From the IMG/VR virus record IMGVR_UViG_3300049919_000280, positions 19,682 to 83,681 of that record: a DNA stretch of 64,000 nt; one strand, written 5' to 3'. This DNA is from a virus (lineage: Duplodnaviria; Heunggongvirae; Uroviricota; Caudoviricetes). The translations under genes were made by a program, and so were the position numbers. The stretch's first letter is position 1; each line of letters begins with the position of its first letter. Positions 9,445 to 30,677 of this stretch are shown here, piece by piece. The notes beneath the pieces were generated by a model that searched no databases, had not been told where the DNA came from, and worked only from the letters and a program-made list of their open reading frames with translations.

Positions 9445-10254
9445 ATGTCAAAAATTAAAGATGCGCTTGGAGACAAGCTAAAGGAATATGAAATGGTTGA
9501 AGCTGGTCGGCGATGCATGAAAGGTCTGCCGATTGTCGCTAGACTTGATGGTCGTGCGTTTAGCAGCTTCACCAAAGGTCTGGCTCGACCTTATGATATT
9601 CGCATGAGCGCAGCGATGGTGGAGACCACGAAGTATTTGGTTGCCACCACTGGCGCTTTAATTGGTTACTGTCAGAGCGATGAAATTTCACTCCTATACT
9701 TCGTTGAAGCTGATGGGGTTGAGGATTATGCTTTTTCAGGCAGGTTCCAGAAACTAACCAGTATCCTCGCATCGACTGCTTCTGTCATGTTTTACTCTGA
9801 AGTGATTAAAAACATTCCAGAAAAGGCAGACAAACTTCCTGTGTTTGATTGCCGCATCATGCAACTTCCAACCAAAGAGATTGCAGCTGAGTGCTTCAAG
9901 TGGCGTGAATTGGATGCGACAAAGAATGCTGTTAGCATGGCTGCACATTCGATGATTCCACACAAAGAACTCGAAGGGCTCAAGGGCTGGCAAAAGCAGG
10001 AGTTAATGTTTAGTCGATTCGGCGTCAATTTCAACGATTACCCAGTGTTCTTTAAGCGTGGGACTTATGTCCGTAAGGAACCCATCCTTATCCCACTGGA
10101 CGAAGAGACACGAAATAAAATTCCAGCGGATAGGAGACCACCAAAGGGATTTTCGGTAATTCGTAATATGATGGCAGAACTTGATTGGGAGCCATGTACC
10201 AAGTATGATTCGGTTGAATGGACCAACATGATTTTTGGCGATGAGCCTAATTGA
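9445..10254 (+). CDS. Thg1-like protein (tRNA-His guanylyltransferase / 3'-5' polymerase family)
   Basis: VARLDGRAFSSF, GYCQSDEISLLY, FDCRIMQLP and KWRELDATKNA match Thg1 motifs VVRLDGRNFHRF, YGQSDEYSF, FDGRVVVYP and SWRQADCHINN (recalled from memory). Confidence 0.75.
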   Translation: MSKIKDALGDKLKEYEMVEAGRRCMKGLPIVARLDGRAFSSFTKGLARPYDIRMSAAMVETTKYLVATTGALIGYCQSDEISLLYFVEADGVEDYAFSGRFQKLTSILASTASVMFYSEVIKNIPEKADKLPVFDCRIMQLPTKEIAAECFKWRELDATKNAVSMAAHSMIPHKELEGLKGWQKQELMFSRFGVNFNDYPVFFKRGTYVRKEPILIPLDEETRNKIPADRRPPKGFSVIRNMMAELDWEPCTKYDSVEWTNMIFGDEPN

Positions 10255-10395
10255 TTTTCTTGCTGTAGTCTGGTGCGGCAGCGGCGAGCTAAAGCCTGTT
10301 TGACCAGAACGCTACCATGCTGCGCCGGGGCATGGTCTAAGACAAGTTCTACTGCGGGTTCGTGGGGGAATTAGCCGGTGCCAATTTTAGGAGCT

Positions 10396-10587
10396 ATGAT
10401 GCGATACTACGTGGATAGTGAAGGGCAAATTAAGGACGATTCGGTTCCACCTGCTGGTTATTATTTCAGTTATGAGGATGATGGTACCTATGAATCTATC
10501 CTAATCGTTAACGAAACTGATTTTGAGATCGTTGCAGAATATTGTATCTGGGACTCCCTCGAAGAACTTAAGGCTGCAATAAAGTGA
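10396..10587 (+). CDS. hypothetical protein (63 aa)
   Basis: RBS aggag 6 nt upstream of ATG 10396. Confidence 0.5.
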   Translation: MMRYYVDSEGQIKDDSVPPAGYYFSYEDDGTYESILIVNETDFEIVAEYCIWDSLEELKAAIK

Positions 10588-10949
10588 GACATATTAACAT
10601 CGCATTAGTTTGTGCCGAACGATCCACGTTCAAGCAGAGAATTGGGGCTGTAGTTTTTAAGGGCTCTAGGATTCTTGGAACTGGATTCAACCAGACCAAT
10701 AGGCACCAAAGCTTGGTCAAGACCTCATCTTGGCCCGGTTCTGTGCATGCTGAAGTTTCTGCAATTGCGGATGCCATCAGGAATTACAAAGACGTTCGTG
10801 GTGCTGATATGCTGGTCGTTAGATTAAAGAGGACTGGTGATATGGGGTTGGCTATGCCATGCGAGGCATGTTACAATGTTTTGAAGTCTGTTGGAATCCG
10901 GAGAGTCAATTTTTCCGATGTTGATGGATTTGGCTGCATCACTTTTTAG
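10584..10949 (+). CDS. CMP/dCMP deaminase family zinc-binding protein (121 aa)
   Basis: HAEVSAI ... PCEAC zinc-ligand motifs. Confidence 0.6.
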   Translation: MRHINIALVCAERSTFKQRIGAVVFKGSRILGTGFNQTNRHQSLVKTSSWPGSVHAEVSAIADAIRNYKDVRGADMLVVRLKRTGDMGLAMPCEACYNVLKSVGIRRVNFSDVDGFGCITF

Positions 10950-10957
10950 GAGTTAAA

Positions 10958-11131
10958 ATGGCTAAAATTCCCGTTATCTTAGAACCACCATACACCTGTT
11001 TATTTTGTGGTATGCCTTCTTGGGTCGATCCGTCTGATCAGTCTCCGCCACCAGATTATTGCCATGAATCCGACCATGGCGATGCCGAGGATTATATCGA
11101 GTACGCGCTTAGTCAAGGACAGGTTGATTGA
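10958..11131 (+). CDS. small protein (57 aa)
   Basis: RBS aggag. The product carries a CxxC pair. Confidence 0.45.
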   Translation: MAKIPVILEPPYTCLFCGMPSWVDPSDQSPPPDYCHESDHGDAEDYIEYALSQGQVD

Positions 11132-11150
11132 AATTAGTGTTGTAAATCAA

Positions 11151-11188
11151 GGAGTTGCGTGATTAGTTGCGTGACTCCTTTTCTTTTG
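11151..11188 (+). terminator. terminator hairpin ggagttgcgtg ... cgtgactcc plus TTTTCTTTTGG, immediately followed by an extended -10 (TGgTAGTAT) and the CATCGAAAC leader
   Basis: This terminator/promoter fusion recurs at 24189 and 37081. Confidence 0.5.
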
Positions 11189-11226
11189 GTAGTATGACTA
11201 CATCGAAACAACGTTGGAGACGCAAA

Positions 11227-12731: not shown

Positions 12732-13607
12732 GTGGAAAACAAAAACATCATTGTGAAAGAATCAAAGCGGTTTCCGGGGTTGTTTGTTCGGAAATACAAA
12801 AATTCAGTTTTTTATGATAATACCTGGTGCGCAGAAACCGTTGAGGCTCGCGGTCACGTATATAATGCTGCTGGGGTTCGTGTCGTAAATTCTCCCACCA
12901 AAATCTTCAATCACATGGAGAACGGACATACCATTGATCGAGATACAGAAGTCGTTGCCATCCGTAAGGTGAATGGATTCATGGCATGCGCGACTTGGAT
13001 ACCTGAACTTGATCGAGTCGTCGTTTCGACTACCGGTTCATTGGATTCCGATTTTGTTGGATATGCTGAGGAAATGTTCGCCCCAACTAACGTGATGGCT
13101 GTCGTTGCTGCAGCCGGCAAGAGAGCAGAATACAACACCACTTGGTTCTTTGAAATTTGCCATCCATCTGATCCGCATATTATTGAGGAAGCAGAAGGAG
13201 TTTATCTTCTGGGTGGTCGCTACGTTTCTTCTGGGTCGCCGTATTCATCGACAAAGGTACTGGAATCGGTATTTGATGATGTTGCAAAAGAAATGAACGT
13301 GATGCGCCCGTCATGGGCAATGTGTCGGTTTGGTGATGTTGTGAAGGAATCGAAGACGGTCAAGCACGAGGGATTCGTGTGCTACAGTGTAGATAAAGCG
13401 ATCAAGATTAAGTCGCCATATTATTTGGGGTGTAAAGCGGTTGCCCGAAAGAAGGATATCTTTACGCTGGATAAAAAGCGAGTTGATGAGGAGTTCTATC
13501 AAATCATCGATGCTTTGGTTGCAATGGGTAATGAGTTTAACGCTATGGAAGAACAGGATCGGCTGAAGTTGATTCGTAAATTGATTGAGGATGCACAAAA
13601 TGACTAA
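12732..13607 (+). CDS. Rnl1-family ATP-dependent RNA ligase, GTG start (291 aa)
   Basis: Nucleotidyltransferase motifs I K79-V-N-G, III FFEICH (E141), IV EGFV (E213) and V KIK (K225,K227). The spacing (62/72/12) matches T4 Rnl1 K99/E159/E227/K240. Confidence 0.6.
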   Translation: MENKNIIVKESKRFPGLFVRKYKNSVFYDNTWCAETVEARGHVYNAAGVRVVNSPTKIFNHMENGHTIDRDTEVVAIRKVNGFMACATWIPELDRVVVSTTGSLDSDFVGYAEEMFAPTNVMAVVAAAGKRAEYNTTWFFEICHPSDPHIIEEAEGVYLLGGRYVSSGSPYSSTKVLESVFDDVAKEMNVMRPSWAMCRFGDVVKESKTVKHEGFVCYSVDKAIKIKSPYYLGCKAVARKKDIFTLDKKRVDEEFYQIIDALVAMGNEFNAMEEQDRLKLIRKLIEDAQND

Positions 13608-13983: not shown

Positions 13984-14292
13984 ATGACTTACAAGTTATT
14001 CATTGATGACGAACGGCATCCTGTTACCAATGACTGGGTTATTGCTCGCTCGTCCAAAGAAGCAATCAAATGCGTTCAGGAAAATGGTTTGCCAGATGAA
14101 GTCGCGTTCGATCACGACCTCGGCGGCGATGACACTGTTCGCAGCTTCATTTTCGGTTTTGTGGACTATATTATCGACAATAGACTTGTTATCCCTAAGA
14201 GTTTCAAGTATAGTGTGCATAGCCAGAATCCAGTTGGTGCAGAGTGGATTCGTGGTACCATGAGCACGATCATAGAAGAATTCGGAGAATGA
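13984..14292 (+). CDS. hypothetical protein (102 aa)
   Basis: Cassette leader ends in caagaccATG. The earlier track start lies inside the promoter. Confidence 0.6.
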   Translation: MTYKLFIDDERHPVTNDWVIARSSKEAIKCVQENGLPDEVAFDHDLGGDDTVRSFIFGFVDYIIDNRLVIPKSFKYSVHSQNPVGAEWIRGTMSTIIEEFGE

Positions 14293-14535: not shown

Positions 14536-14682
14536 ATGTTTACCATTTACTTTAAGATAATCGGCGATCATTTCGCCTCGGAACAGCGTGAGGTTGTTGA
14601 GGCTATTTCACGCAGCGAAGCAATCTCTAAGTTCGTTTCCAATATGGTCGGTGAAGCATATTTAATCGTTGAGGTGGTATGA
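14536..14682 (+). CDS. small protein (48 aa)
   Basis: ATG 14536. Its stop overlaps the next start (ATGA). Confidence 0.4.
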   Translation: MFTIYFKIIGDHFASEQREVVEAISRSEAISKFVSNMVGEAYLIVEVV

Positions 14683-15680
14683 TGGGCGGAAACTGCTTGA
14701 AGAATTGCGAAATTCGCCGGATGAGTCTGGTTGAATACAACATGACCTGCAAGAAGGTTCTTGAATCAATCAAAGATATGCGTGGCGAATGGGGATACTT
14801 GCGAGTTGCTAAAGTGTGTCGGTCAACTCGCAGCAAGATCGACTTTGGTGATATCGACGTTCTGATGGTTTCTGACGAATTGCCTGCGGATTGGATTGAA
14901 CAGTTATCTAAGGAATGGAAGAGCAAAGAAGTTGTCCGCAATGGCCCAGTGGTCACATTTGAAGTTGATGGCTTTCAGGTGGATGTCATCAAAACCCCAT
15001 CACATGAATTCAATTCGGCGTATGCCTACCTGGGCCAGGCCGACTGTGGCAACTTTATGGGAAAATTGTCCCGCAGACTTGGTCTGAAATACGGTCACAA
15101 TGGCCTAACCTATGTCTATCGTGATGGTGATCATGTCGTTGGTAATATCACTGTGTCCGATACTCCTGCCGAAACATTTGACCTACTCGGTTTAAATTAT
15201 GAAAAATTCCTAGAAGGATTCGATACGCTTGAAGATGTTTTTGAGTTCGTCGCATCCTCAAAATATTTCAGCCCGAAACCGTTTTCATTCGAGGAAATGA
15301 ATTCCATCGCTCGCATCCGTGACAAAAAGCGACCATCGTATAACGCGCTGCTGAAATGGATCGATGCTAACAAGGCAACTCGGGATTGGAATTATGAGTT
15401 TGCAGATAAGGATTCGTATCTCCCGATGCTCTTCGAAAGGTTTCCTAAATTCCGAGAAGAGTGGTATAATCTACGAGCTAGATCATATGTCATGCGAGAT
15501 ATTCAGGCCAAATTCAACGGCGATATTGTCAGAGATATAACTGGCCTTCAAGGTAAAGACCTTGGGTTATTCATGATTAAGTTGCGTATGGAAGGTGGAT
15601 TGACTCAAGACTTCATCCTCACTCAGTCGCAGGAAAAGATCAACCAAGTTATTGCAGATCAATTTAAGGAATCAAAATAA
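14679..15680 (+). CDS. putative Pol-beta-superfamily nucleotidyltransferase (333 aa)
   Basis: RSTRSKIDFGDIDVLMV resembles the GS-x(9-13)-DxD nucleotidyltransferase signature. The assignment is weak. Confidence 0.4.
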   Translation: MMGGNCLKNCEIRRMSLVEYNMTCKKVLESIKDMRGEWGYLRVAKVCRSTRSKIDFGDIDVLMVSDELPADWIEQLSKEWKSKEVVRNGPVVTFEVDGFQVDVIKTPSHEFNSAYAYLGQADCGNFMGKLSRRLGLKYGHNGLTYVYRDGDHVVGNITVSDTPAETFDLLGLNYEKFLEGFDTLEDVFEFVASSKYFSPKPFSFEEMNSIARIRDKKRPSYNALLKWIDANKATRDWNYEFADKDSYLPMLFERFPKFREEWYNLRARSYVMRDIQAKFNGDIVRDITGLQGKDLGLFMIKLRMEGGLTQDFILTQSQEKINQVIADQFKESK

Positions 15681-17459: not shown

Positions 17460-17761
17460 TGAGAAAAAGTTTCAAAAAAGAAATCAAAAGAGTTTATCTA
17501 GAAGGTAACTTATTGGAGGTTAAGAACCTCATTGATGAATTGATCGAAATTCATGGGGCTTCCGCCACGCTAGAAGAAACAGAGCAATACTATATGTACG
17601 AGAATACCCCGGACAAGTACATCGCTCTATTCAAAATGGTAGAGGAAACCGAGGCTGAAATGGTGGTTCGTATCGCAAACGAAACTAAATTGAAACAAGA
17701 TCAAGATAAGCATGACCGTGCGCTACTTGAACAACTCAAGAAAAAACTAGGAGAGAAATAA
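17459..17761 (+). CDS. hypothetical protein (100 aa)
   Basis: TAATG overlap. Confidence 0.5.
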   Translation: MRKSFKKEIKRVYLEGNLLEVKNLIDELIEIHGASATLEETEQYYMYENTPDKYIALFKMVEETEAEMVVRIANETKLKQDQDKHDRALLEQLKKKLGEK

Positions 17762-18270
17762 TGGCATTAGAAATCGAAAGAAAATGGCTGATCAATCGAA
17801 TCCCAAATGGAATTCAGGATGGGTTCAGCATCAATGAAATTCGTCAAGCATACGTGCTAAACAAAGCACATACGGTGCTTCGAGTGCGTTCAATCAGAGA
17901 ACACCAAGACGGCGAAATGTTCAATGAGTATGGAGTCATTACAGTCAAAGGCCCATCTGATGTTGAAAACGCACCTAGGGAATATGAAATGGAGATTCCT
18001 ATCGATCTGGCCAATAATCTAATATCAGGATGCAATGTAGTTTTGCTGAAGCGTCGGCACAACATTCCATACGGCGAGCATTTAATTGAACTGGATATCT
18101 TTGAAGGTAAATTGAATGGGCTTATCGTCGCAGAGGTTGAGTTCTCCGGATTGGATGATAGGGATTCTTTCGTTGCACCTGATTGGTTTGGTCTCGAAGT
18201 AACAGGAATGCACACATATGCAAATTCTAACTTGATTAAGTTGGATAAGGCACCGGAAGAAATTCAATGA
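17761..18270 (+). CDS. CYTH-domain protein (triphosphate tunnel metalloenzyme family)
   Basis: The N-terminal EIERKW signature (ExExK) is characteristic of CYTH/CyaB-type enzymes. Confidence 0.55.
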   Translation: MALEIERKWLINRIPNGIQDGFSINEIRQAYVLNKAHTVLRVRSIREHQDGEMFNEYGVITVKGPSDVENAPREYEMEIPIDLANNLISGCNVVLLKRRHNIPYGEHLIELDIFEGKLNGLIVAEVEFSGLDDRDSFVAPDWFGLEVTGMHTYANSNLIKLDKAPEEIQ

Positions 18271-19928: not shown

Positions 19929-20116
19929 AAACAAAGTTTAACTATGGTGTGGGGCATTATTGGGACGAGGGTGAGGGTTCAGTTGGACTCTACACTTACC
20001 ACAATGATATGTTCTTTGGCACGATGAAAGAGGCAAAGAAGTTTCGTGAGTATGTGAAGAAACAGAGTCCAGATCGTGAGTGGAAAATCTTTCAATTGGT
20101 GGAGGTGCCAGAATGA
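19925..20116 (+). CDS. hypothetical protein (63 aa)
   Basis: ATGA overlaps at both ends. Confidence 0.45.
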   Translation: MKTKFNYGVGHYWDEGEGSVGLYTYHNDMFFGTMKEAKKFREYVKKQSPDREWKIFQLVEVPE

Positions 20117-21382: not shown

Positions 21383-22186
21383 ATGAGTGTAAAATTATTT
21401 GGTGGGAATCAGTTCATCGAGCTTAAATGGTGGGATTTCCCTGCAGGCGAGCGTGGGGTTAAGATCGTTGATCCGTTGGATATTGAGCGATACAAGTCAT
21501 TCACGGTGCATTGCTTGTTCAAGGGTTCGAGCGACCTGATTGATGTTATGCTTCTGGTAAATGCCTGCCGTAATGTTATGGGAACGGTGAAGTTGCGTCT
21601 GCAGATTCCATATTTTCCTTATGCTCGGCAGGATCGGGTTTCTGTTGCAGGAGAATCGTTTTCATTGCAGATTGCTGCGGATGTCATCAAGTCATGCAAC
21701 TTCTATGAGGTTGAAGTCTGGGATGCACATAGTGACGTTCTTGCTGGAATGTTTCCAGCAGGTGTCTTGAAGAATAAGACACAAGCTGAACTGGCAGATA
21801 TCTTTTTCATTCTAGGCGGATATTCTTCTGATCAGGTTGCCATCATTTCACCTGACGCTGGAGCCCTGAAGAAAATTTATGCGGTTGCCAAGCGGATCAA
21901 TTGTGATGTAATTTGTGCAAGCAAGAATCGTGATCCGAAGACTGGCAATATCACTGAGACGACGATTGACAGCAGTGAGTTTCATCGGTATGATAGAATG
22001 GTAATTGTGGATGATATCTTAGATGGCGGAAAAACATTTTTGGATTTGGGTAATCTCATTCGAAAAACATATTCCGGAGAACTTGGGTTGCACGTAACAC
22101 ACGGGCTATTTACCAAGGGTAAGGATGCGCTTCTGGAAAATTTTGATGGTATTAGCGCGGCCATCGACTACACTGAAACTAATTGA
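21383..22186 (+). CDS. truncated ribose-phosphate pyrophosphokinase (Prs) homolog; candidate ADP-ribose pyrophosphokinase (Adps)
   Basis: VKLFGGNQFIEL, IPYFPYARQDRV, IISPDAGAL and VIVDDILDGGKTF align with E. coli Prs MKLFAGNATPEL, IPYFGYARQDRR, VVSPDIGGV and VLVDDMIDTGGTL. It is 267 aa versus 315. Confidence 0.7.
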   Translation: MSVKLFGGNQFIELKWWDFPAGERGVKIVDPLDIERYKSFTVHCLFKGSSDLIDVMLLVNACRNVMGTVKLRLQIPYFPYARQDRVSVAGESFSLQIAADVIKSCNFYEVEVWDAHSDVLAGMFPAGVLKNKTQAELADIFFILGGYSSDQVAIISPDAGALKKIYAVAKRINCDVICASKNRDPKTGNITETTIDSSEFHRYDRMVIVDDILDGGKTFLDLGNLIRKTYSGELGLHVTHGLFTKGKDALLENFDGISAAIDYTETN

Positions 22187-22197
22187 GGAGTAATATT

Positions 22198-23946
22198 ATG
22201 GGACGATTTAAGCAGACTGCATTGACTTCAGTGGATAGTTACAAAACGGCACATGCCGATATGCTACCCACTGGAACTGAGCAAATTTACAGCAACTTCA
22301 CTCCTCGTTCAATGAAGCACTTCAATGTGCCGGAAGAGTACAAGGCAGACAAGAAGATCGTTTGGGTTGGCCTGCAGGCATTCATGTACGAGTTGAAGGA
22401 AGTGTGGCAAGAGACCTTCTTCGAGCGTCATGTTGATGCGGTATGTAATGAATTTTCTGAATTCGTCGCCCCGTTTGCTGGCCCTCGTGGCTTCAACATT
22501 GAACGGGTTCGCGCATTACACAAACTTGGGTATCTGCCAATTCGCATCAAGTCACTACCAGAAGGTTCGCGGGTTAATGTTGGAGTTCCATGCCTGACTA
22601 TCACCAACACGGTAAGCGAATTTGCATGGCTTACGAACTATCTGGAAACTTGGATTAGTTGCGAAATGTGGAAGATTTGTACGAGTGCCACTACCGCTGC
22701 AGTGTATCGCAAGATTTGTGAGAAATATGCAGACCTTACTGGTGGATCGAAGGAATTCATTCAATGGCAATGCCATAATTTTGCGGATCGTGGGCAAAGT
22801 GGAATCCAAGATGCTGCGAAGTCTGGTGTTGGTCACTTGCTGAGTTTCACCGGCACAGATTCATTGTCTTCTGTTAAGCTGATCAATGACGTTTATGAAG
22901 GCAAAAAGACATTTGTTGGCGGTAGTGTTCCTGCCTCCGAACATATGGTGCAATGTGCAGGTTCGATGGAAGGTGAGTTGGAAACATATCGTCGCCTGAT
23001 CAAGGATTACCCTAGCGGTGTTGTTTCTATCGTGTCAGATACTTGGAATTTTTGGGATGTCATCACTAAGACTGCAGCTACTCTGAAAGAAGAAATTCTT
23101 GCTCGGGTTCCTGATCAGTTTGGATTGGCAAAGGTCGTGTTCCGCCCAGATTCTGGTGATCCGGTTGATATCATTTGTGGCGATGAAATTCGTGATATTT
23201 CTAGCTATCTAACCGAAAATTCGACAATTGAAGCGATAGGTGCGGAAGCGGTAGATTTCCTAAGCGGTGCAGTATTTATCAAAACCCCTCATGGTGAGTG
23301 TGGTGACAGCAGCCCCTCAGCGATATTCAAATGTTTCGGTAAATACTACAAAGTAACAGCTAACATCGAATGGAATCGTTACGACAAGCAGTATTATTAC
23401 ATCGATGGCAGCAACCTAGAATCAATTGAAGAAGTCCAATTGTCTCCGGCGCAAAAGGGCGCAGTAGAATGTCTCGCTGAAATTTTTGGCACCACCACTA
23501 ATGACAAGGGATTCAAAACTCTGAATCAACGAGTTGGTTTGATTTATGGCGACAGCATCACTCCGCAGCGTGCCATTGCGATTTTCGAGCGACTTGCAGC
23601 TAAGGGATATGCCAGCGACAATATCGTTTTTGGGGTGGGTAGTTATACTTACTCCTATGTAACTCGGGACTCACTAGGTTTCGCAATGAAGGCAACTAAC
23701 GTCGTTATCAATGGCGAAAGTCGAGCGATTTTCAAAGACCCAGCCACTGACACTGACAAGACCAAGAAGTCTGCAAAGGGTCTTCTTCGAGTTGATCGAG
23801 TTGGCAAGGACTTTGTGCTGCGGGATAACGTCACTGCAGAAGAGGAAGCTGGTGGCGAGTTGAAAGTCGTGTTTGAAAACGGCAACATCTTGTCGAGAGA
23901 GAACTTTGCGGACATGCGCAGCCGTTTGGAATTGGCTTCTCAGTAG
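22198..23946 (+). CDS. nicotinamide phosphoribosyltransferase family enzyme (Nampt/NadV-like; candidate Namat)
   Basis: The N-terminal TDSYKTAH motif matches Nampt TDSYK. Large (582 aa) and directly 3' of the Prs homolog. Confidence 0.6.
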   Translation: MGRFKQTALTSVDSYKTAHADMLPTGTEQIYSNFTPRSMKHFNVPEEYKADKKIVWVGLQAFMYELKEVWQETFFERHVDAVCNEFSEFVAPFAGPRGFNIERVRALHKLGYLPIRIKSLPEGSRVNVGVPCLTITNTVSEFAWLTNYLETWISCEMWKICTSATTAAVYRKICEKYADLTGGSKEFIQWQCHNFADRGQSGIQDAAKSGVGHLLSFTGTDSLSSVKLINDVYEGKKTFVGGSVPASEHMVQCAGSMEGELETYRRLIKDYPSGVVSIVSDTWNFWDVITKTAATLKEEILARVPDQFGLAKVVFRPDSGDPVDIICGDEIRDISSYLTENSTIEAIGAEAVDFLSGAVFIKTPHGECGDSSPSAIFKCFGKYYKVTANIEWNRYDKQYYYIDGSNLESIEEVQLSPAQKGAVECLAEIFGTTTNDKGFKTLNQRVGLIYGDSITPQRAIAIFERLAAKGYASDNIVFGVGSYTYSYVTRDSLGFAMKATNVVINGESRAIFKDPATDTDKTKKSAKGLLRVDRVGKDFVLRDNVTAEEEAGGELKVVFENGNILSRENFADMRSRLELASQ

Positions 23947-24663: not shown

Positions 24664-25176
24664 ATGGCACAATTAGTGATTATTCGTGGATTGCCCGGAA
24701 GTGGTAAGACCACCATCGCGAAGAAAGAATTTCCGAATCATTTCCATACAGAAGCCGACCAGTGGTTCATCGACCCGCAGACTGGTGAGTACCGATTCGA
24801 CCCAACCAAATTGAATGGTGCCCATCGTGGGTGTCAGGCTGCGACTTTCAAGGCACTGCAATCAGGACATGACGTGGTCGTCACCAACACTTTCACTCAG
24901 AATTGGGAATTCGATTCCTATTTCGATATTTGCGACGAATTGGAAATTGAGGACATTCTGGTAATCGAAATGAAAACCCAGTACCAGAATATTCATGGTG
25001 TCCCTGAAGAAAAGATGGAAGTCATGCGCCGTCGCTGGCATGCATGGGGCTCATTCGAAGTTCCTGAATGTGTTCAGTATCAGGAAGTTTGGCCGATTCG
25101 AACCGATGAGCAAAAGAACTGCGACTGCATGTCAGAAGATCACTTCGACCCTGAAGCTGGAGTGATGCCATCATGA
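24664..25176 (+). CDS. P-loop kinase, polynucleotide 5'-kinase-like (170 aa)
   Basis: The N-terminus LVIIRGLPGSGKTTIAKK resembles the T4 Pnk kinase domain ILTIGCPGSGKSTWAR. Confidence 0.55.
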   Translation: MAQLVIIRGLPGSGKTTIAKKEFPNHFHTEADQWFIDPQTGEYRFDPTKLNGAHRGCQAATFKALQSGHDVVVTNTFTQNWEFDSYFDICDELEIEDILVIEMKTQYQNIHGVPEEKMEVMRRRWHAWGSFEVPECVQYQEVWPIRTDEQKNCDCMSEDHFDPEAGVMPS

Positions 25177-26429: not shown

Positions 26430-27104
26430 ATGACAAGTAAAAAGATTTGGTTTTGTGCAGATTTACATCTGGGGCATCGTAACATCATGAAGTTTTCCCC
26501 AGATAGAATCGATATTCTCGGGTTAGATAAGTTCTACTCGAAGGAGTTGATAGCTCGTGCCTTTCAGGCGACGACCCTTAAACAAGATAGCCAAGCAGAG
26601 ATTGCGGAAGCACAGAATATATTGAGTCGCGCTCGGGATAAGATGGACGAACTGATCATCAAACAGTGGAACGAGACCATTGGATTTTCTGATGACGTGT
26701 ATATCCTTGGTGATGTATCATTCTGGAAAGCGGATAAAACTGAACGGTTGTTGAATCAGATGCATGGTCGGTTGCACCTAATCCGGGGTAACCATGATCA
26801 TGGCACGGACATGCTGGATCGCTGGGAATTGGTTAAGGATTATGCTGAAATTAAGTTCGATGGCATTCCGACTATCATGTTTCATTTCCCTATCCAGGAA
26901 TTTTGTATGCAACATCGAGGGGCAATTCATATTCATGGGCATACCCATAACAACCTACCAAAGCATCTGGGGAAGGTGTTAGATGTCGGAATGGAATCTC
27001 TCGGTAAGATCGCAATAGAATGGGCAGAATTAAAGGATTATATGGCAACCCGCCCGATTACACCACATGGCGATTCGGACGAAAATCAAACTCACGGATA
27101 TTGA
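26430..27104 (+). CDS. calcineurin-like metallophosphoesterase (224 aa)
   Basis: DLHLGH ... GNHD ... HGHTH metal-ligand motifs. Confidence 0.65.
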   Translation: MTSKKIWFCADLHLGHRNIMKFSPDRIDILGLDKFYSKELIARAFQATTLKQDSQAEIAEAQNILSRARDKMDELIIKQWNETIGFSDDVYILGDVSFWKADKTERLLNQMHGRLHLIRGNHDHGTDMLDRWELVKDYAEIKFDGIPTIMFHFPIQEFCMQHRGAIHIHGHTHNNLPKHLGKVLDVGMESLGKIAIEWAELKDYMATRPITPHGDSDENQTHGY

Positions 27105-27575: not shown

Positions 27576-28010
27576 ATGATTAAGTACATGGATTGGCCGC
27601 CGCCAGAGTTGGTTGGATTGTTTAAAACGAAATACGACTTTTACCTAGGTGGAAGTCGTCGTATGGCAAAGAAATTCTACGAAGAAGTTCATGTAAATTC
27701 TGCCACAGATTACGACCTGTATGCGACCAGCAGCCAAGATGCAGAAGATATTCTAGCAATGGCAGGATTCACTCGCAGTTTGATAGATGATTTGTATCTG
27801 GACGACCAAGCAGTTTCAATTTGGAAGAAGGGTGACGTTCAAGTGGTATTGCGAAAAAATGCCGAATTCTATGAAAAAGTATTCGAGAGCATTTCTGCGG
27901 AATATTATGTTAATCACCTATGGAAAAGCTCACAAGTTTTTGAATCCCATCCTGAACGGCGAGCATTAATCGGCGAACACTTCAACCAAATGTTTAGGAG
28001 TGCGGCATGA
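27576..28010 (+). CDS. putative minimal nucleotidyltransferase (144 aa)
   Basis: LGGSRRM ... SATDYDLY resembles the GS ... DxD nucleotidyltransferase signature. Weak. Confidence 0.35.
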   Translation: MIKYMDWPPPELVGLFKTKYDFYLGGSRRMAKKFYEEVHVNSATDYDLYATSSQDAEDILAMAGFTRSLIDDLYLDDQAVSIWKKGDVQVVLRKNAEFYEKVFESISAEYYVNHLWKSSQVFESHPERRALIGEHFNQMFRSAA

Positions 28011-28366: not shown

Positions 28367-28375
28367 GAGACAACT

Positions 28376-28657
28376 GTGAAGAAAAAGAAATTATTTGATG
28401 TATTCGGTAAAGAAGTAAAATTACCTAAATGTAAAGTATATCTTTCGCGCAGGAATCTTGAGGCGTTGATATCTAAGCTTGATCGTGTTGCTGCAGGAGA
28501 GTCGTCGGAGTGTGCCATCATAAAGCGAGATAACGCACATCCAGAATATGCTCAGTCGATGAAGGAGATTATGGTGGTTGCAGTCGAGAACGAAAAATAC
28601 TACGTGGATCGTCCTGCTGGGCTGATGATGCCTGCTGATGTGAAGACCATATCGTGA
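28376..28657 (+). CDS. hypothetical protein (93 aa), GTG start
   Basis: ORF. Confidence 0.5.
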   Translation: MKKKKLFDVFGKEVKLPKCKVYLSRRNLEALISKLDRVAAGESSECAIIKRDNAHPEYAQSMKEIMVVAVENEKYYVDRPAGLMMPADVKTIS

Positions 28658-29301
28658 ATACCGACTTCAAAAAGCGAGTCGTATTTGTTGATATCGACGG
28701 CCCGATGGTTTCGGATCGCACTATCCGATTCGACCCAAAGAATAAGTCGAACCATCCAACTGTTCAGGACTTCATTGCGAAGCATTGTGACGAAGGAGAC
28801 TTTGCCGCTCGTGTAATCACATACATCCACTTCGACACAGTTGCCGTTGGTATGATGAATGAGTTATATGATCAATATCCGTATGAAATGGTGTTGTCGA
28901 GTTCGTGGTTCCATATCATCAACGAGAAGCAAACTCGTGCCCTATTTGAATACAATGGAATTAAAGCTCCATGGCATAAACGATGGAACACCCCTCGCAG
29001 ATTCAATTCCACAAGGGGAGAGGAAATTTCTTGGTGGCTGAAAGAAAATTCGTCGTATGACTACATCGTATTGGACGATCCTAGTAGTTTTCCAGATTCG
29101 TCTGATCCTAATGTTCTTCGCCAATTTGATATCGATCCAGACTATTGCATTATTGTCGATCCTTTCATTGGTCTTGAATATCACCACTTTGACCAGATGA
29201 AGAACATTTTTGCAGGGGAATCAATAGCCGCGAGGCACGGTAAGATGGTGGCAAAGGTGGTAAACGAGCAGATTTACCAAAAAACCCTTACAGATCAGTG
29301 A
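28654..29301 (+). CDS. HAD-like phosphatase (215 aa), GTG start
   Basis: The N-terminal VVFVDIDGPMVSD (DxDG) resembles the phosphatase domain of T4 Pnkp and 5'-nucleotidases. Confidence 0.45.
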   Translation: MNTDFKKRVVFVDIDGPMVSDRTIRFDPKNKSNHPTVQDFIAKHCDEGDFAARVITYIHFDTVAVGMMNELYDQYPYEMVLSSSWFHIINEKQTRALFEYNGIKAPWHKRWNTPRRFNSTRGEEISWWLKENSSYDYIVLDDPSSFPDSSDPNVLRQFDIDPDYCIIVDPFIGLEYHHFDQMKNIFAGESIAARHGKMVAKVVNEQIYQKTLTDQ

Positions 29302-29379
29302 GTTGCAAAGTGTTGTGTTTTGGTTTCGATGCGTGTATAATTCATTACATCGAAACCAACAACGCAAAGTGAGATTAAA

Positions 29380-29631
29380 ATGTTATCAACCAACCAGTTC
29401 AGATTCGATAAGGCTTCTAGAAATTTGGTCGCTTCGGTTAATACGTTTAATGAGAGTTATCTTGGTGGGTTTCCGGTGACCATGGAAATTCATTCGCCGA
29501 AGACCGGTAATGTTTGCCGGTTCTTCATCGATGCCGCCGCTGCTGAGCGCAATGAGTATTGGGATGGTGAAGAAATGCAGTATATTTCTGCGGAAACTGA
29601 TGTCCGCGTTATTTTACATTGTGGAGAGTAA
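29380..29631 (+). CDS. hypothetical protein (83 aa)
   Basis: Cassette leader. Confidence 0.55.
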   Translation: MLSTNQFRFDKASRNLVASVNTFNESYLGGFPVTMEIHSPKTGNVCRFFIDAAAAERNEYWDGEEMQYISAETDVRVILHCGE

Positions 29632-29633
29632 AG

Positions 29634-30677
29634 ATGAGTCGTGAAAACAATCAAATGAGCTACATCGCGGAAATCACCCATCTGGTGCCGATCCGCGATG
29701 CTGATGCCATCGAAAAAGCAGTCATCAACGCGGGGTGGCCTGTTGTGGTTAAGAAGGGCGAATTCAACGTTGGCGATTTGGTAATATACATGGAAATCGA
29801 CAGCTGGTGCCCGACTGAGTTGGCACCGTTCCTATCAAAGGGAAACGAACCTCGCGAATACAATGGGGTAAAGGGAGAGCGTCTGCGTGGTATTAAATTG
29901 CGCGGACAGCGCAGCCAAGGTCTCGTCCTACCACTCCAAAAGAAAATGGGCGGTTGGCTGTTGCCTATGCCTTACGATCAAACGCTAGTCGAAAAAGGCC
30001 AATTGATCGGCGATGTTCTTGGAATTCAGAAGTGGGAAGCCCCAGAAGGATTCTCGTCTGGTAATGCTAAGGGCAATTTCCCATCTGTTGTGCCGAAGAC
30101 TGATGCAGAACGCATCCAGAACCTTCGCCATGAACTGCAAGACTGGATCGAGCGGGGTCTTACCTTTGAAGTCACTGAAAAGCTACATGGTACTTCGTTC
30201 ACTGCTCTTGTCGTAGATGGTGAATTCGGTGTATGTTCGCGGAATCTACTTCTCCAAGAAGGAGAAGGTACATATTGGTCTGTAGCTGAAAAGCATGGCC
30301 TCAAGGAAAAGATGCTTGCCATGGGTCGAAACTTCGCGGTGCAAGGCGAAATCATTGGGCCGGGAATCCTCGGAAACCAGTATGGATTGCCTGAATCCGA
30401 AGTGTTCGTGTTCAATGTGTTTGACATTGACAAAAAAGGATACGTCACTCCGGAAGAACGGCATAGCATTATCGAAGAACTTGAATTGAAGCATGTACCT
30501 ATCATCTGCAAATGGCATAGTATGAGCGAACATACTATCGATTCATTACTTGAACTTGCAGAAGGAAAGAGTGTGCTCAACAGCAGCGAACGTGAGGGAT
30601 TGGTATTCAAGTGTATCGAAGACCCTAGCATTCAGTTCAAGAGTGTGAGTAATCGCTGGTTGGATAAGGAAAAGTGA
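29634..30677 (+). CDS. ATP-dependent RNA ligase, Rnl2/Rnl5-like, with N-terminal extension (347 aa)
   Basis: Motif I EKLHGTSF (KxHG as in T4 Rnl2 KIHGTN), then FAVQGEIIG, EGLVFK and a KxK tail. The nucleotidyltransferase module is C-terminal behind a roughly 170-aa N-domain, as in DraRnl-type ligases. Confidence 0.6.
   Translation: MSRENNQMSYIAEITHLVPIRDADAIEKAVINAGWPVVVKKGEFNVGDLVIYMEIDSWCPTELAPFLSKGNEPREYNGVKGERLRGIKLRGQRSQGLVLPLQKKMGGWLLPMPYDQTLVEKGQLIGDVLGIQKWEAPEGFSSGNAKGNFPSVVPKTDAERIQNLRHELQDWIERGLTFEVTEKLHGTSFTALVVDGEFGVCSRNLLLQEGEGTYWSVAEKHGLKEKMLAMGRNFAVQGEIIGPGILGNQYGLPESEVFVFNVFDIDKKGYVTPEERHSIIEELELKHVPIICKWHSMSEHTIDSLLELAEGKSVLNSSEREGLVFKCIEDPSIQFKSVSNRWLDKEK

What the first reader, a model, noticed from the sequence alone, without database searches (positions are those of the whole stretch)
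9445..30677. Expanded RNA-repair toolkit: two RNA ligases (Rnl1-like and Rnl2/Rnl5-like), Pnk-like kinase, HAD phosphatase, two metallophosphoesterases, Thg1-like enzyme, CYTH protein and putative nucleotidyltransferases
T4 carries Rnl1 plus Pnkp to reseal tRNAs cut by host anticodon nucleases. This window has homologs of that pair split into separate genes: kinase at 24664-25176 and a DxDG phosphatase at 28654-29301. It adds a second ligase of the N-domain Rnl2/Rnl5 type (29634-30677). It also adds a Thg1-like 3'-5' polymerase that can rebuild tRNA 5' ends (9445-10254), a CYTH triphosphatase (17761-18270), two calcineurin-like phosphoesterases (26430-27104 and 37853-38617) and two Pol-beta-type nucleotidyltransferase candidates. 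With the tRNA genes and the Ro60-like protein, this looks like a layered defence against host tRNA- and RNA-targeting immunity (PrrC/RloC-like nucleases, HEPN nucleases, tRNA-acceptor cleavers). A Thg1-like enzyme in a phage is particularly unusual.
Basis: partly seen in the sequence, partly recalled or inferred. Interest (0 to 1): 0.75.

Follow-up and report, generated by a model that had tools for sequence, protein, structure and literature searches.

The report
Phage RNA-repair and tRNA-rescue gene set
A new T4-like phage carries a very full set of genes for mending cut RNA (two ligases, end-healing enzymes, a tRNA 5'-end polymerase, a Ro60 protein with four partner RNAs), but sets like this are already described in giant phages.

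Summary
The ligase it left without coordinates is at 12732-13607, a T4 Rnl1-type nucleotidyltransferase domain. One Pol-beta-type nucleotidyltransferase is at 14682-15680, with a family X polymerase fold.

I also found:
- a cRec domain next to Rnl1;
- four Y-RNA-like genes upstream of the Ro60/TROVE gene, belonging to an RNA family with strong covariation that is found beside TROVE in most of the 49 viral loci searched;
- a borderline ArfA-like ribosome-rescue ORF.

The window is the accessory arm of a distant T4-like myovirus. The repair genes are scattered over about 30 kb among NAD-salvage, dCMP deaminase and DenV genes. They do not form one operon.

The kinase, phosphoesterase 26430-27104 and the Rnl1-like ligase are linked by more than proximity. 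Their homologs sit side by side in two other phage genera.

- Thg1-like genes are not unusual in phages (164 records).
- The HAD is of the "Swiss-army-knife" family, not the T4 Pnkp type.
- Nothing ties CYTH, the second phosphoesterase or the polymerase-X-like protein to RNA repair.

Iyer et al. 2021 already describe this repertoire in jumbo phages. This is a new member of a known kind, and function is inferred only.

The parts
36..161 (+). 41-aa ArfA-like ORF (alternative ribosome-rescue factor). Borderline match.
   Evidence: PF03889 scores 25.4 bits against a cut-off of 25.5, E 9.5e-6. The motif KKGRGSWKRKEKH is visible. tblastn found no relative in the phage collection.
172..6421 (+). tRNA gene cluster. 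Pro 172-247, Gly 1427-1510, Ile(UAU)-like 2001-2095, tRNA-like 2899-3004, Arg 3310-3386, Asn 4729-4804, Thr 6350-6421. Tyr 789-873 is called by ARAGORN only.
   Evidence: ARAGORN and Rfam tRNA. No tRNA-His is present in the window or in the 1.6 kb upstream of it.
3010..3082 (+). Y-RNA-like gene, short form
   Evidence: Covariance model R1, 46.5 bits, E 9e-13.
4501..4636 (+). Y-RNA-like gene with an inserted tRNA-like domain (YrlA architecture). It has the T-arm GGUGGUUCGAAUCCACC and a D-arm-like hairpin.
   Evidence: R1 35.7 bits with an 81-nt insertion. Rfam tRNA gives a weak match at 4506-4571.
4644..4715 (+). Y-RNA-like gene, short form
   Evidence: R1 63.8 bits. Covariation of the family is shown.
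4826..4896 (+). Y-RNA-like gene, short form, immediately upstream of the TROVE start codon
   Evidence: R1 59 bits.
4909..6342 (+). Ro60 ortholog (TROVE plus vWA)
   Evidence: PF05731 2.7e-13 and PF25045 1.6e-6. Relatives occur in 94 phage records.
9445..10254 (+). Thg1-like protein of the bacterial TLP type (3'-5' nucleotidyltransferase)
   Evidence: PF04446 1.8e-28. Best PDB match is Bacillus thuringiensis TLP 4KGK at 2.9e-38, against 2.6e-13 for a eukaryal Thg1. The catalytic D and DE residues are conserved.
12732..13607 (+). Rnl1-like ATP-dependent RNA ligase: nucleotidyltransferase domain plus a short tail
   Evidence: phrog_562 1.9e-40. There are 1912 homolog clusters, most carrying PF09511. 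The profile hits T4 Rnl1 residues 49-252 at E 5.6e-9. K79, N81, G82, E213, G214, K225 and K227 are invariant.
13984..14292 (+). cRec (cyclic-phosphate-processing receiver) domain protein
   Evidence: PF20274 3.5e-20. Iyer et al. 2021 report operonic links between cRec and RNA ligases.
14682..15680 (+). Family-X-polymerase-like nucleotidyltransferase (palm plus thumb) with a C-terminal helical domain. The family is uncharacterised and its link to RNA repair is unproven.
   Evidence: 41 homolog clusters, none with a Pfam domain. D58, D60 and D102 are invariant. The model has pLDDT 93.9. Foldseek top hits are PolX, Pol lambda and Pol beta at E 3e-7. The neighbours of its homologs are NAD and nucleotide enzymes, not ligases.
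17761..18270 (+). CYTH domain protein. Its role in RNA repair is not supported.
   Evidence: PF01928 24.5 bits against a cut-off of 23.2. phrog_6660 2.3e-22.
21383..23946 (+). NAD+ salvage pair: PRPP synthetase-like protein (21383-22186) and NAMPT (22198-23946). This module recurs next to phage RNA ligases.
   Evidence: Pfam. The same pair lies beside the Rnl1-like ligase and kinase in phiPsa397, and beside Rnl5 in phage pf16.
24664..25176 (+). Small P-loop kinase of the polynucleotide-kinase clade (candidate 5'-OH kinase)
   Evidence: AAA_33 1e-7. phrog_2071 4.5e-28 and phrog_505 PNK 1.9e-6. The family profile matches CthPnkp, T4 Pnk, Pnkp1 and PNKP kinase domains at E 4e-6 to 4e-5. It is adjacent to the Rnl1-like ligase in other phages.
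26430..27104 (+). Metallophosphoesterase MPE1 (candidate 2',3'-cyclic-phosphate / 3'-phosphate esterase)
   Evidence: PF00149 2.2e-6 and phrog_547 2.6e-46. Its homolog lies directly upstream of the Rnl1-like ligase in 2L372X and phiPsa397, and near Rnl5 in L079 and L082.
27576..28010 (+). 144-aa ORF with a GGS...DYD...DD motif. Possible minimal Pol-beta nucleotidyltransferase, unverified.
   Evidence: Motif seen by eye. Only one other homolog cluster exists. No Pfam match. The model has pLDDT 44.6.
28654..29301 (+). Stand-alone HAD phosphatase of the 'Swiss-army-knife' RNA-repair family
   Evidence: PF18143 1.2e-12. Motifs DIDG, SSS and DD are visible. It lies 330 nt upstream of Rnl5.
29634..30677 (+). 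Rnl5-type (DraRnl/NgrRnl) RNA ligase: N-terminal OB fold plus nucleotidyltransferase domain
   Evidence: PF21189 1.9e-23 and PF09414 6.9e-28. TIGR02306 scores 166 bits against 151. 5COT matches at 2.3e-62 over the full length, and motif I reads KLHG.
31610..32407 (+). SPFH/Band-7 protein. The association is by position only.
   Evidence: PF01145 1.6e-16. An SPFH gene also lies 6.8 kb downstream of Rnl5 in cyanophage S-CREM1.
37853..38617 (+). Second metallophosphoesterase, MPE2. No link to RNA repair was found.
   Evidence: PF00149 6.3e-8 and phrog_1649 1.5e-36.
40471..40926 (+). Macro domain protein (ADP-ribose processing), next to gp59 and gp32
   Evidence: PF01661 3e-5.

Best explanation
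The window is the accessory (early-gene) arm of a previously unsequenced, distant T4-like myovirus. It has accumulated a near-complete set of known-type modules for keeping the translation apparatus working while the host attacks RNA.

Proposed working (inferred, not shown):
1. [quoted passage not shown]
2. MPE1, and possibly cRec and the Swiss-army-knife HAD, remove the cyclic or 3' phosphate.
3. The small PNK-clade kinase phosphorylates the 5'-OH.
4. The Rnl1-like ligase seals single-stranded loop breaks.
5. The Rnl5 ligase seals nicks in duplex RNA.
6. The Thg1-like protein refills 5'-truncated tRNA acceptor stems by templated 3'-5' addition.
7. Phage tRNAs replace lost ones.
8. Ro60 with its four Y RNAs handles misfolded or damaged RNAs, probably with a host exonuclease.
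9. NAMPT with PRPP synthetase, and the Macro protein, counter NAD+-based defences in parallel.

The genes are dispersed and are probably independent acquisitions that act as separate modules. They do not form one operon.
For: - **Domains and catalytic motifs are intact** for every enzyme.
- **The phage is T4-like.** It has gp32, gp59, a Dda-like helicase and baseplate proteins gp5, 6, 25 and 53.
- **Gene neighbourhood elsewhere links three of the genes.** An MPE1 homolog, an Rnl1-like ligase and the kinase are adjacent in Aeromonas phage 2L372X and in Pseudomonas phage phiPsa397. In phiPsa397 they are followed by PRPP synthetase and NAMPT.
- **Kinase and Rnl1-like homologs share nearly the same phage genus distribution**, in 552 and 612 records respectively.
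- **Other neighbours recur near Rnl5 in viral contigs:** cRec and MPE1 homologs lie within 3 kb of it in L079, an MPE1 homolog lies near it in L082, and Macro or NAMPT lie near it in other contigs.
- **cRec sits 380 nt after Rnl1 here.** Iyer et al. 2021 report cRec-ligase operons.
- **The HAD_SAK_2 gene sits directly before Rnl5.**
- **Ro60 has cognate RNAs.** A two-helix RNA family shows 92% of cells paired against 61% in shuffles, and a covariation score of 0.85 against 0.23 (0 of 500 shuffles reach it). The model gives 131 hits at E <= 0.01 in the window plus 49 viral TROVE loci. All are on the TROVE strand and nearly all lie next to the gene. Four are in this window, and with filters off nothing else in its 64 kb scores above 16 bits.
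- **The same repertoire is described for jumbo phages** and interpreted the same way (PMC7824862).
Against: - No functional data exist for any of these proteins.
- The genes are spread over about 30 kb. Between them lie DenV, dCMP deaminase, a nucleoside deoxyribosyltransferase-like protein and dozens of small ORFs.
- The Rnl1-like ligase has nothing matching T4 Rnl1 beyond residue 252. By my recollection that region is the T4 tRNA-specificity domain, so tRNA targeting cannot be inferred.
- PNK-clade kinases, MPEs and PolX act on DNA ends as well.
- Iyer et al. read CYTH as an NTP hydrolase.
- Homologs of the PolX-like protein sit beside NAD and nucleotide enzymes, not ligases.
- The only phage Ro60 studied so far binds host PNPase. 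That points to RNA decay or hijacking, not repair.
Confidence: 0.6

Rival explanations
1. This is a coincidental collection. The genes are unrelated cargo of the hyperplastic region of a large T4-like genome, and several serve DNA or nucleotide metabolism or virion assembly rather than RNA repair. The kinase, MPEs and PolX-like protein could process DNA ends. CYTH could hydrolyse NTPs. The Rnl1-like ligase could act in tail-fibre attachment, as T4 gp63 does.
For: - The layout is dispersed, with unrelated genes in between.
- phrog_562 is named 'RNA ligase and tail fiber protein attachment catalyst'.
- The PolX-like protein's best structural matches are DNA polymerases, and its homologs sit beside NAD and nucleotide enzymes.
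- Iyer et al. read CYTH as an NTP hydrolase.
- MPE2 has no informative neighbours.
Against: - The conserved MPE1 / Rnl1-like / kinase cassette in two other phage genera argues for a shared pathway for those three genes.
- HAD_SAK_2 and cRec are families defined by their association with RNA repair.
- Two RNA-specific ligase families, a TLP and a Ro60/Y-RNA module all act on RNA.
Confidence: 0.25
2. The modules serve RNA maturation or host takeover, not damage repair. The Thg1-like protein matures phage-encoded tRNAs. Ro60 with its Y RNAs recruits host PNPase to remodel RNA decay. The ligases process phage transcripts or tRNA-like RNAs.
For: - TLP, Ro60, the Y RNAs and the tRNA genes lie in one 10-kb stretch.
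- Thermus phage phiLo Ro60 binds two upstream Y-like RNAs and host PNPase (PMC12135203).
- TROVE genes in related viral contigs sit beside tRNA and even tmRNA genes.
- Some of the window's tRNAs are odd: an Ile-like and a Gly tRNA with long variable arms, and a 106-nt tRNA-like sequence.
Against: - No tRNA-His lies in or just upstream of the window.
- ARAGORN draws the acceptor stems paired at their 5' ends, so no need for 5' editing is visible.
- Maturation does not explain the kinase, phosphoesterase and ligase cassette.
Confidence: 0.15

Closest known systems
T4 Rnl1 plus Pnkp tRNA repair pathway (counter to the PrrC anticodon nuclease)
   Same: It has an Rnl1-family ligase domain (profile E 5.6e-9 to 2C5U). 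Its kinase family matches the T4 Pnk kinase domain by profile (9.7e-6). It is a T4-like phage with tRNA genes.
   Different: - The kinase is a stand-alone protein of about 125 aa core, not fused to a phosphatase.
- The candidate phosphatases are an MPE, a cRec protein and a Swiss-army-knife HAD, not the PNK-fused HAD.
- The ligase has nothing that matches T4 Rnl1 beyond residue 252.
- The genes lie 11-17 kb apart.
Jumbo-phage RNA-repair repertoires described by Iyer, Anantharaman, Krishnan, Burroughs and Aravind 2021 (Viruses 13:63). Among my phage hits: Burkholderia BcepSauron/Saruman, Ralstonia RsoM2USA, Brevundimonas and Caulobacter jumbo phages.
   Same: The parts list matches: Rnl1- and Rnl2-like ligases, PNK, Swiss-army-knife HAD, calcineurin-like esterases, cRec, Thg1, TROVE, many tRNAs, NAMPT-based NAD salvage and Macro. 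The best phage matches for Thg1 and TROVE here are those same jumbo phages.
   Different: - The backbone here is T4-like (best gp32 matches are cyanomyoviruses at about 41%), not one of the named jumbo groups.
- No RlaP or CCA-adding Pfam match appeared among the roughly 60 ORFs I scanned, and no RtcB or PTH either.
- A PolX-like nucleotidyltransferase is present instead.
Bacterial Pnkp-Hen1 and Pnkp1-Rnl-Hen1 RNA repair systems
   Same: The chemistry is predicted to be the same: a P-loop 5' kinase, a metallophosphoesterase 2',3'-phosphatase and an ATP-dependent ligase (abstracts; PDB profile hits 4GP7 and 4XRP).
   Different: Here these are three separate small proteins. In the bacterial systems they form one multidomain polypeptide or a defined complex. 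No Hen1 methyltransferase was found.
Rsr(Ro60)-YrlA/YrlB ribonucleoproteins of bacteria and phages (Chen et al. 2014) and Thermus phage phiLo Ro60-Yrl1/Yrl2 (NAR 2025)
   Same: The TROVE plus vWA protein has several small RNAs encoded just upstream on the same strand. One carries a permuted tRNA-like domain. The others are stem / internal loop / stem hairpins.
   Different: - The conserved 5' motif is GUGG(C/U)G(U/A)(A/U)G with a 3' UGUUCC. The published motif is GNCGAA(N)G / CGAA.
- No Rfam family matches these RNAs.
- This window holds four copies, and related viral loci hold up to about eight.
Naegleria gruberi / Deinococcus radiodurans RNA ligase (Rnl5)
   Same: It aligns over the full length, with the OB-then-nucleotidyltransferase domain order and conserved motifs. 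It passes the TIGR02306 equivalog cut-off.
   Different: Motif I reads KLHG where NgrRnl has KLDG. By my recollection T4 Rnl2 also has His at this position. Relatives occur in 343 phage records.
Bacillus thuringiensis Thg1-like protein (BtTLP, PDB 4KGK)
   Same: This is the best structural-database match (2.9e-38), with the catalytic carboxylates conserved.
   Different: The phage protein has an extra C-terminal tail of about 55 aa. Its substrate is unknown.

Membership tests
Thg1 / Thg1-like protein (PF04446) | Thg1 catalytic domain scores above the Pfam gathering score | tested here: met
   99.5 bits against 29.2. Thg1C scores 27.5 against 26.3.
Thg1 / Thg1-like protein (PF04446) | Catalytic carboxylates (D in RxDG, DE in SDE) are conserved, and the protein is closer to bacterial TLPs than to eukaryal Thg1 | tested here: met
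   The alignment to 4KGK shows RLDGRAF matched to RIDGAHF and QSDEISLL matched to QSDEISIL. E is 2.9e-38 for the TLP against 2.6e-13 for Candida Thg1.
Thg1 / Thg1-like protein (PF04446) | 3'-5' nucleotide addition activity on tRNA | not testable with these tools
   Needs enzymology.
Rnl1 (T4 RnlA, PF09511) | Sequence membership in the Rnl1 nucleotidyltransferase family | tested here: met
   The protein itself has no Pfam hit at E <= 0.01. It matches phrog_562 at 1.9e-40. Most of its 1912 homolog clusters carry PF09511. The profile hits T4 Rnl1 at 5.6e-9.
Rnl1 (T4 RnlA, PF09511) | Ligase motifs I (KxxG), IV (EGxV) and V (KxK) | tested here: met
   K79, N81, G82, E213, G214, K225 and K227 are invariant in 24 homologs.
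Rnl1 (T4 RnlA, PF09511) | C-terminal helical tRNA-specificity domain of T4 Rnl1 (residues about 255-374, from my own knowledge) | tested here: not met
   The profile alignment to T4 Rnl1 ends at residue 252. Only about 50 residues remain in the 291-aa protein.
Rnl5 (DraRnl/NgrRnl, TIGR02306) | N-terminal OB fold followed by the nucleotidyltransferase domain, and an equivalog score above the cut-off | tested here: met
   PF21189 and PF09414. TIGR02306 scores 166.3 against 151.15. 5COT matches at 2.3e-62 over residues 18-352.
Rnl5 (DraRnl/NgrRnl, TIGR02306) | Motif I KxDG | tested here: inconclusive
   The lysine is present, but Asp is replaced by His: KLHG against KLDG. The effect on activity is unknown.
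T4-type bifunctional Pnkp | Polynucleotide 5'-kinase P-loop domain | tested here: met
   The single sequence finds no PDB hit. A profile of 40 homologs matches CthPnkp, T4 Pnk, Pnkp1 and PNKP kinase domains at 4e-6 to 4e-5. G9, G12, G14, K15 and D32 are invariant.
T4-type bifunctional Pnkp | Kinase fused to a PNK-type HAD 3'-phosphatase | tested here: not met
   The kinase is a 170-aa stand-alone protein. The HAD lies 3.5 kb away and belongs to HAD_SAK_2. The HAD has no sequence match to T4 Pnkp in the PDB.
HAD 'Swiss-army-knife' RNA-repair phosphatase (PF18143) | Pfam match above the cut-off and the DxD nucleophile motif | tested here: met
   48.8 bits against 27.5. VDIDGP is visible.
cRec (PF20274) | Pfam match above the cut-off, and adjacency to an RNA ligase | tested here: met
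   72.9 bits against 27. It lies 380 nt downstream of the Rnl1-like gene. A homolog lies 1.5 kb from Rnl5 in L079.
CYTH (PF01928) | Pfam match and the N-terminal ExExK motif | tested here: met
   24.5 bits against 23.2, which is marginal. The N-terminus reads MALEIERKW. Any link to RNA repair was not tested.
Ro60-Y RNA ribonucleoprotein | TROVE plus vWA protein | tested here: met
   PF05731 2.7e-13 and PF25045 1.6e-6.
Ro60-Y RNA ribonucleoprotein | Structured small RNAs encoded next to the gene on the same strand, at least one with a tRNA-like domain | tested here: met
   14 of 16 pairs show compensatory changes. All covariation controls are passed. The model gives 131 hits, all on the TROVE strand. 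The window copy at 4501-4636 holds T-arm and D-arm-like hairpins.
Ro60-Y RNA ribonucleoprotein | Published Ro-binding motif GNCGAA(N)G; physical binding | tested here: inconclusive
   Only a variant motif, GG(C/U)G(U/A)(A/U)G, is present. Binding cannot be tested here.
RlaP (PF10127) ligase-associated Pol-beta nucleotidyltransferase | Pfam PF10127 match in an ORF near the ligases | tested here: not met
   No PF10127 hit in any of the roughly 60 ORFs scanned.
Family X DNA polymerase | Pol-beta-type palm with three catalytic Asp, plus a thumb | tested here: met
   D58, D60 and D102 are invariant. Foldseek gives probability 1.0 to PolX, Pol lambda and Pol beta over about 180 residues.
Family X DNA polymerase | Fingers and 8-kDa domains; polymerase activity | tested here: not met
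   Only about 180 of 333 residues align (query-normalised TM about 0.4). The rest is a helical C-terminal domain with no match. Activity cannot be tested here.

The most novel reading that the evidence does not exclude
The Ro60 protein with its four Y RNAs, one of them tRNA-like, might act as a scaffold. It would bring damaged tRNAs to the phage's own healing, sealing and 5'-refilling enzymes, forming a virus-encoded RNA 'repairosome'. In that reading the uncharacterised PolX-like nucleotidyltransferase family (41 clusters, no Pfam domain) would be a new RNA- or NAD-linked enzyme filling the role RlaP plays elsewhere.
Probability: 0.08. Interest if true: 0.7.

Novelty: new member of a known kind. 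Interest (0 to 1): 0.38.

Why it matters
It extends the broad RNA-repair, tRNA-rescue and NAD-salvage counter-defence repertoire, so far catalogued mainly in jumbo phages, to a divergent T4-like lineage.

It also gives concrete material for experiments:
- a three-gene heal-and-seal cassette (MPE, Rnl1-like ligase, small PNK-clade kinase) that is conserved across phage genera;
- a phage TLP;
- a well-supported covariance model for a phage Y-RNA family that Rfam does not detect;
- an uncharacterised PolX-like nucleotidyltransferase family.

None of this overturns current understanding.

Tried and rejected
- **Near-identity DNA search.** Megablast of 9000-31000 against 50,697 phage records found nothing. 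The phage is new at the DNA level.
- **Single-sequence PDB searches.** The Rnl1-like ligase, the kinase, the PolX-like protein and the HAD gave nothing useful. Profiles or a structure model were needed.
- **NCBIfam.** It was informative only for Rnl5.
- **The non-coding-looking gap 30677-31610.** I suspected an ncRNA beside the SPFH gene. Gene calls on an identical Logan contig fill the gap with five small ORFs, and Rfam finds nothing there. I dropped the idea.
- **Rfam.** It finds no Y RNA in the window or in 20 related TROVE loci.
- **Exact-pattern scan of viral contigs.** Scanning with the Y-RNA 3' arm returned 22 unrelated chance matches. nhmmer built from the two window copies also found nothing.
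- **Fold energies of the single Y copies.** They are no better than shuffles. The support for the structure comes from covariation.
- **Relatives of the HAD.** None in viral contigs, and only one weak hit in the phage collection.
- **Second Pol-beta nucleotidyltransferase candidate, 27576-28010.** There is only one other homolog cluster, and the model is unusable at pLDDT 44.6. I ran no fold search on it.
- **RNA-ligase association of the PolX-like family.** I looked in three homolog contexts and did not find one.
- **ArfA-like peptide.** No tblastn hit in phages.
- **Burroughs and Aravind 2016 (PMC5062991).** The paper is not held in the library.

Full report
**What the window is**

The plus strand from about 1 to 38.6 kb is a dense run of mostly small genes. 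It ends at a Macro protein, a gp59-like loader and gp32 (40471-42769). T4-type baseplate genes follow: gp5 OB, gp6, gp25, gp53 and the T4_baseplate family. A Dda-like SF1 helicase lies at 6582-7901.

The best phage matches for gp32 are cyanomyoviruses at about 41% identity. Megablast of 22 kb finds nothing among 50,697 phage records. The same DNA occurs in a JGI metagenome contig of 98,759 b and in Logan assemblies of SRR35532964. This is therefore the accessory arm of a new, distant T4-like myovirus.

**Checking the observation**

| Coordinates | Assignment | Evidence |
|---|---|---|
| 9445-10254 | Thg1-like protein | PF04446 1.8e-28, Thg1C, phrog_4717 2.4e-71 |
| 17761-18270 | CYTH | 24.5 bits against cut-off 23.2; ExExK visible |
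| 24664-25176 | P-loop kinase | AAA_33; phrog_2071 4.5e-28; weak PNK phrog_505 |
| 26430-27104 and 37853-38617 | Metallophosphoesterases | All metal-binding motifs present |
| 28654-29301 | HAD | PF18143 HAD_SAK_2, 1.2e-12; DIDG |
| 29634-30677 | Rnl5-type ligase | N-terminal OB plus nucleotidyltransferase domain; TIGR02306 above its equivalog cut-off; 2.3e-62 to Naegleria RNA ligase over the full length |

- **Thg1-like protein.** Its best solved relative is the Bacillus thuringiensis Thg1-like protein (4KGK, 2.9e-38). Eukaryal Thg1 scores only 2.6e-13, and the catalytic D and DE residues are conserved. It is a bacterial-type TLP.
- **Rnl5-type ligase.** Motif I reads KLHG where NgrRnl has KLDG.
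- **Rnl1-like ligase.** It is at 12732-13607.
  - The protein has no Pfam hit of its own at E <= 0.01, but it matches phrog_562, the T4 gp63 family, at 1.9e-40.
  - It has 1912 homolog clusters, most carrying PF09511.
  - A profile of 24 homologs hits T4 Rnl1 (2C5U) at 5.6e-9 over T4 residues 49-252.
  - Motifs I, IV and V are invariant.
  - Nothing matches T4 Rnl1 beyond residue 252. By my recollection that is the T4 C-terminal tRNA-specificity domain, so tRNA targeting cannot be inferred.
- **Pol-beta-type nucleotidyltransferases.**
  - One is real, at 14682-15680. It has 41 homolog clusters with no Pfam domain and invariant MGG, D58, D60 and D102.
  - Its AlphaFold model has pLDDT 93.9. The Foldseek top hits are Thermus PolX, Pol lambda and Pol beta with probability 1.0 over about 180 residues.
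  - The other candidate, 27576-28010, has only a GGS...DxD...DD motif, one other homolog cluster and an unusable model. It remains unverified.

**What else is there**

- **cRec domain protein.** PF20274, 3.5e-20, lying 380 nt after the Rnl1-like gene.
- **NAD salvage.** A PRPP-synthetase-like protein and NAMPT at 21383-23946.
- **Other domain proteins.** An SPFH protein at 31610-32407 and a Macro protein at 40471-40926.
- **ArfA-like ORF.** A 41-aa ORF at 36-161 scores 25.4 bits against an ArfA cut-off of 25.5. It carries KKGRGSWKRKEKH. This is borderline.
- **Unrelated genes lie between the repair genes.** These are DenV (8748-9122), dCMP deaminase (10584-10949), a nucleoside deoxyribosyltransferase-like protein (20080-20580) and dozens of small ORFs. 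The 'toolkit' is dispersed over about 30 kb, with no single operon.

**The Ro60 module has its RNAs**

Upstream of the TROVE plus vWA gene (4909-6342) I noticed two 82%-identical copies of a roughly 72-nt element flanking tRNA-Asn. I also saw a weak tRNA-like match inside a larger predicted fold.

The 500 nt upstream of TROVE genes in related IMG/VR contigs hold tandem elements with the same features:
- a 5' GUGG(C/U)G(U/A)(A/U)G motif;
- a stem followed by (A/U)UACUUC or GAGUUCAUC;
- a loop, and a 3' ...UGUUCC.

Some copies have an inserted T-arm followed by a D-arm. That is the permuted tRNA-like domain that defines YrlA.

Evidence that the structure is real:
- An alignment of 23 short copies from the window and 12 viral loci gives two helices. 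In 14 of 16 pairs there are compensatory changes.
- 92.4% of cells are paired against 61% in shuffles. The covariation score is 0.85 against 0.23, reached by 0 of 500 shuffles. Slid controls score 0.22 or less.
- A covariance model finds 131 matches at E <= 0.01 in the window plus 49 TROVE loci. All are on the TROVE strand and nearly all lie just beside the gene.
- In the window, with filters off, it finds 3010-3082, 4501-4636 (with an 81-nt tRNA-like insertion), 4644-4715 and 4826-4896. Nothing else in the 64 kb scores above 16 bits.

Rfam detects none of these RNAs.

This is a known kind of RNA. Chen et al. 2014 reported YrlA-like RNAs next to Ro60 in 254 bacteria and 22 phages, with a GNCGAA(N)G motif. 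Thermus phage phiLo Ro60 binds two upstream Y-like RNAs and host PNPase. The motif here is a variant of the published one.

**Are the repair genes functionally linked?**

Position within this window says little, but other genomes help.

- **Shared distribution.** Kinase homologs occur in 552 phage records and Rnl1-like homologs in 612. The genus distributions are nearly the same: Escherichia 190 and 199, Pseudomonas 172 and 175, Vibrio 88 and 83, Campylobacter 23 and 23.
- **Adjacent cassette.** In Aeromonas phage 2L372X the order is phosphoesterase, Rnl1-like ligase, kinase. The phosphoesterase is an MPE1 homolog (2e-21) and the ligase is 36% identical. Pseudomonas phage phiPsa397 has the same trio, followed by PRPP synthetase and NAMPT.
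- **Kinase clade.** By profile, the kinase family's longest PDB matches are polynucleotide kinases. These are CthPnkp 4.4e-6, T4 Pnk 9.7e-6, Pnkp1 1.3e-5 and mammalian PNKP 4e-5, plus tRNA(Sec) kinase.
- **Rnl5 neighbours.** Around Rnl5 in viral contigs I find an MPE1 homolog and cRec (L079), MPE1 (L082), Macro (L078) and NAMPT (pf16, L078, L079).

The kinase, MPE1 and the Rnl1-like ligase therefore look like a genuine heal-and-seal trio. cRec and the Swiss-army-knife HAD are plausible extra end-healers.

By contrast, homologs of the PolX-like protein sit beside a CTP_transf_like enzyme in Janthinobacterium. In phage contigs they sit near NMNAT-Nudix, Nuc_deoxyri_tr2, HD and Macro genes, and never near a ligase in the three contexts read. 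Its link to RNA repair is not supported. I found nothing linking CYTH or MPE2 either. Iyer et al. read phage CYTH proteins as NTP hydrolases.

**Most likely mechanism**

All steps are inferred from family knowledge. None is shown here.

1. [quoted passage not shown]
2. MPE1, possibly with cRec or the HAD, opens and removes the phosphate.
3. The kinase phosphorylates the 5' end.
4. The Rnl1-like ligase seals single-stranded breaks.
5. Rnl5 seals nicks in duplex RNA. NgrRnl seals nicked duplexes whose 3'-OH strand is RNA (abstract of PMC4408790).
6. The TLP refills 5'-truncated acceptor stems (a bacterial TLP activity, from my own knowledge).
7. Phage tRNAs replace losses.
8. Ro60 with its Y RNAs handles damaged or misfolded RNA, probably with host PNPase.
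9. The NAD-salvage genes and Macro answer NAD-based defences.

Two points bear on the maturation reading of the TLP. No tRNA-His is present in or just upstream of the window. ARAGORN draws the acceptor stems paired at their 5' ends. A maturation role for the TLP therefore has no visible substrate here.

**Comparison with what is known**

Section 3.4.9 of Iyer et al. 2021 (PMC7824862) lists essentially this repertoire for jumbo phages:
- combinations of Rnl1, Rnl2 and RtcB;
- PNK and HAD phosphatases of the PNK-fused or Swiss-army-knife families;
- calcineurin-like esterases, and cRec linked to ligases;
- RlaP and CCA-adding enzymes;
- TROVE, many tRNAs and NAD salvage.

Thg1 homologs occur in 164 phage records and TROVE in 94. 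They often occur in the same phages: Brevundimonas phages, Ralstonia RsoM2USA, Caulobacter CcrPW and CcrColossus.

What differs here:
- the backbone is T4-like;
- the kinase / MPE / ligase trio is dispersed instead of adjacent;
- no RlaP, RtcB or CCA-adding enzyme match appeared among the ORFs scanned;
- a PolX-like nucleotidyltransferase is present;
- there are four Y RNAs.

**Verdict**

This is a new member of a known kind. It is a good, unusually complete example, and it yields useful by-products: a Y-RNA covariance model, the conserved three-gene cassette and an uncharacterised PolX-like family. A specialist would not find it surprising.

Noticed in passing
window 3010-3082, 4501-4636, 4644-4715, 4826-4896; also L027-L075 upstream of their TROVE genes: A family of Y-RNA-like genes lies in tandem next to viral Ro60/TROVE genes and is not detected by Rfam. 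It has two helices with strong covariation, conserved GUGG(C/U)G...UACUUC...UGUUCC, and some copies carry a permuted tRNA-like insert. The model gives 131 hits in the window plus 49 viral loci, all on the TROVE strand.
   Followed up: yes
window 36-161 (+): A 41-aa ORF resembles the ribosome-rescue factor ArfA (PF03889 25.4 bits against a cut-off of 25.5; KKGRGSWKRKEKH). It lies just upstream of tRNA-Pro. tblastn found no phage relatives.
   Followed up: partly
L039 853-1239 and L042 1190-1583: tmRNA genes (Rfam tmRNA, beta_tmRNA and permuted tmRNA) lie about 1-1.5 kb upstream of TROVE genes in two related viral contigs. tRNA genes flank TROVE in several others.
   Followed up: no
window 14682-15680; L086, L087, L088: An uncharacterised family of about 330 aa has a family-X-polymerase palm and thumb plus a helical C-terminal domain (41 clusters, no Pfam domain). 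In Janthinobacterium it lies 10 nt downstream of a CTP_transf_like gene. In phage contigs it lies near NMNAT-Nudix, Macro and HD genes.
   Followed up: partly
window 2001-2095, 1427-1510, 2899-3004, 789-873: Several tRNAs are odd. The Ile(UAU) and Gly(UCC) genes have long variable arms. A 106-nt tRNA-like match is found by Rfam only (38.8 bits) and abuts the Y RNA at 3010. A Tyr gene is called by ARAGORN but not by Rfam.
   Followed up: no
window 2097-2366 (+): A DUF4326 protein (PF14216, 7.9e-29) sits inside the tRNA cluster. A DUF4326 gene also lies near the PolX-like homolog in L087.
   Followed up: no
window 38600-39403 (-): A lone minus-strand ORF of 267 aa has a GIY-YIG-like motif seen by eye (YVYAYL...[10 protein letters not shown]). 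It may be a homing endonuclease. Only PHROGs of unknown function match it.
   Followed up: no
window 1564-1592 and 3437-3465: A 29-nt direct repeat, ATGTCTGTATAATTCAT(C/T)ACATCG(G/A)AACA, contains an extended -10-like TGTATAAT. The motif TGTATAATTC recurs at 4719-4728. It may be a phage early promoter.
   Followed up: no
window 29619-30677, residues KLHG: Motif I of the Rnl5-type ligase has His where NgrRnl has Asp (KLDG).
   Followed up: no
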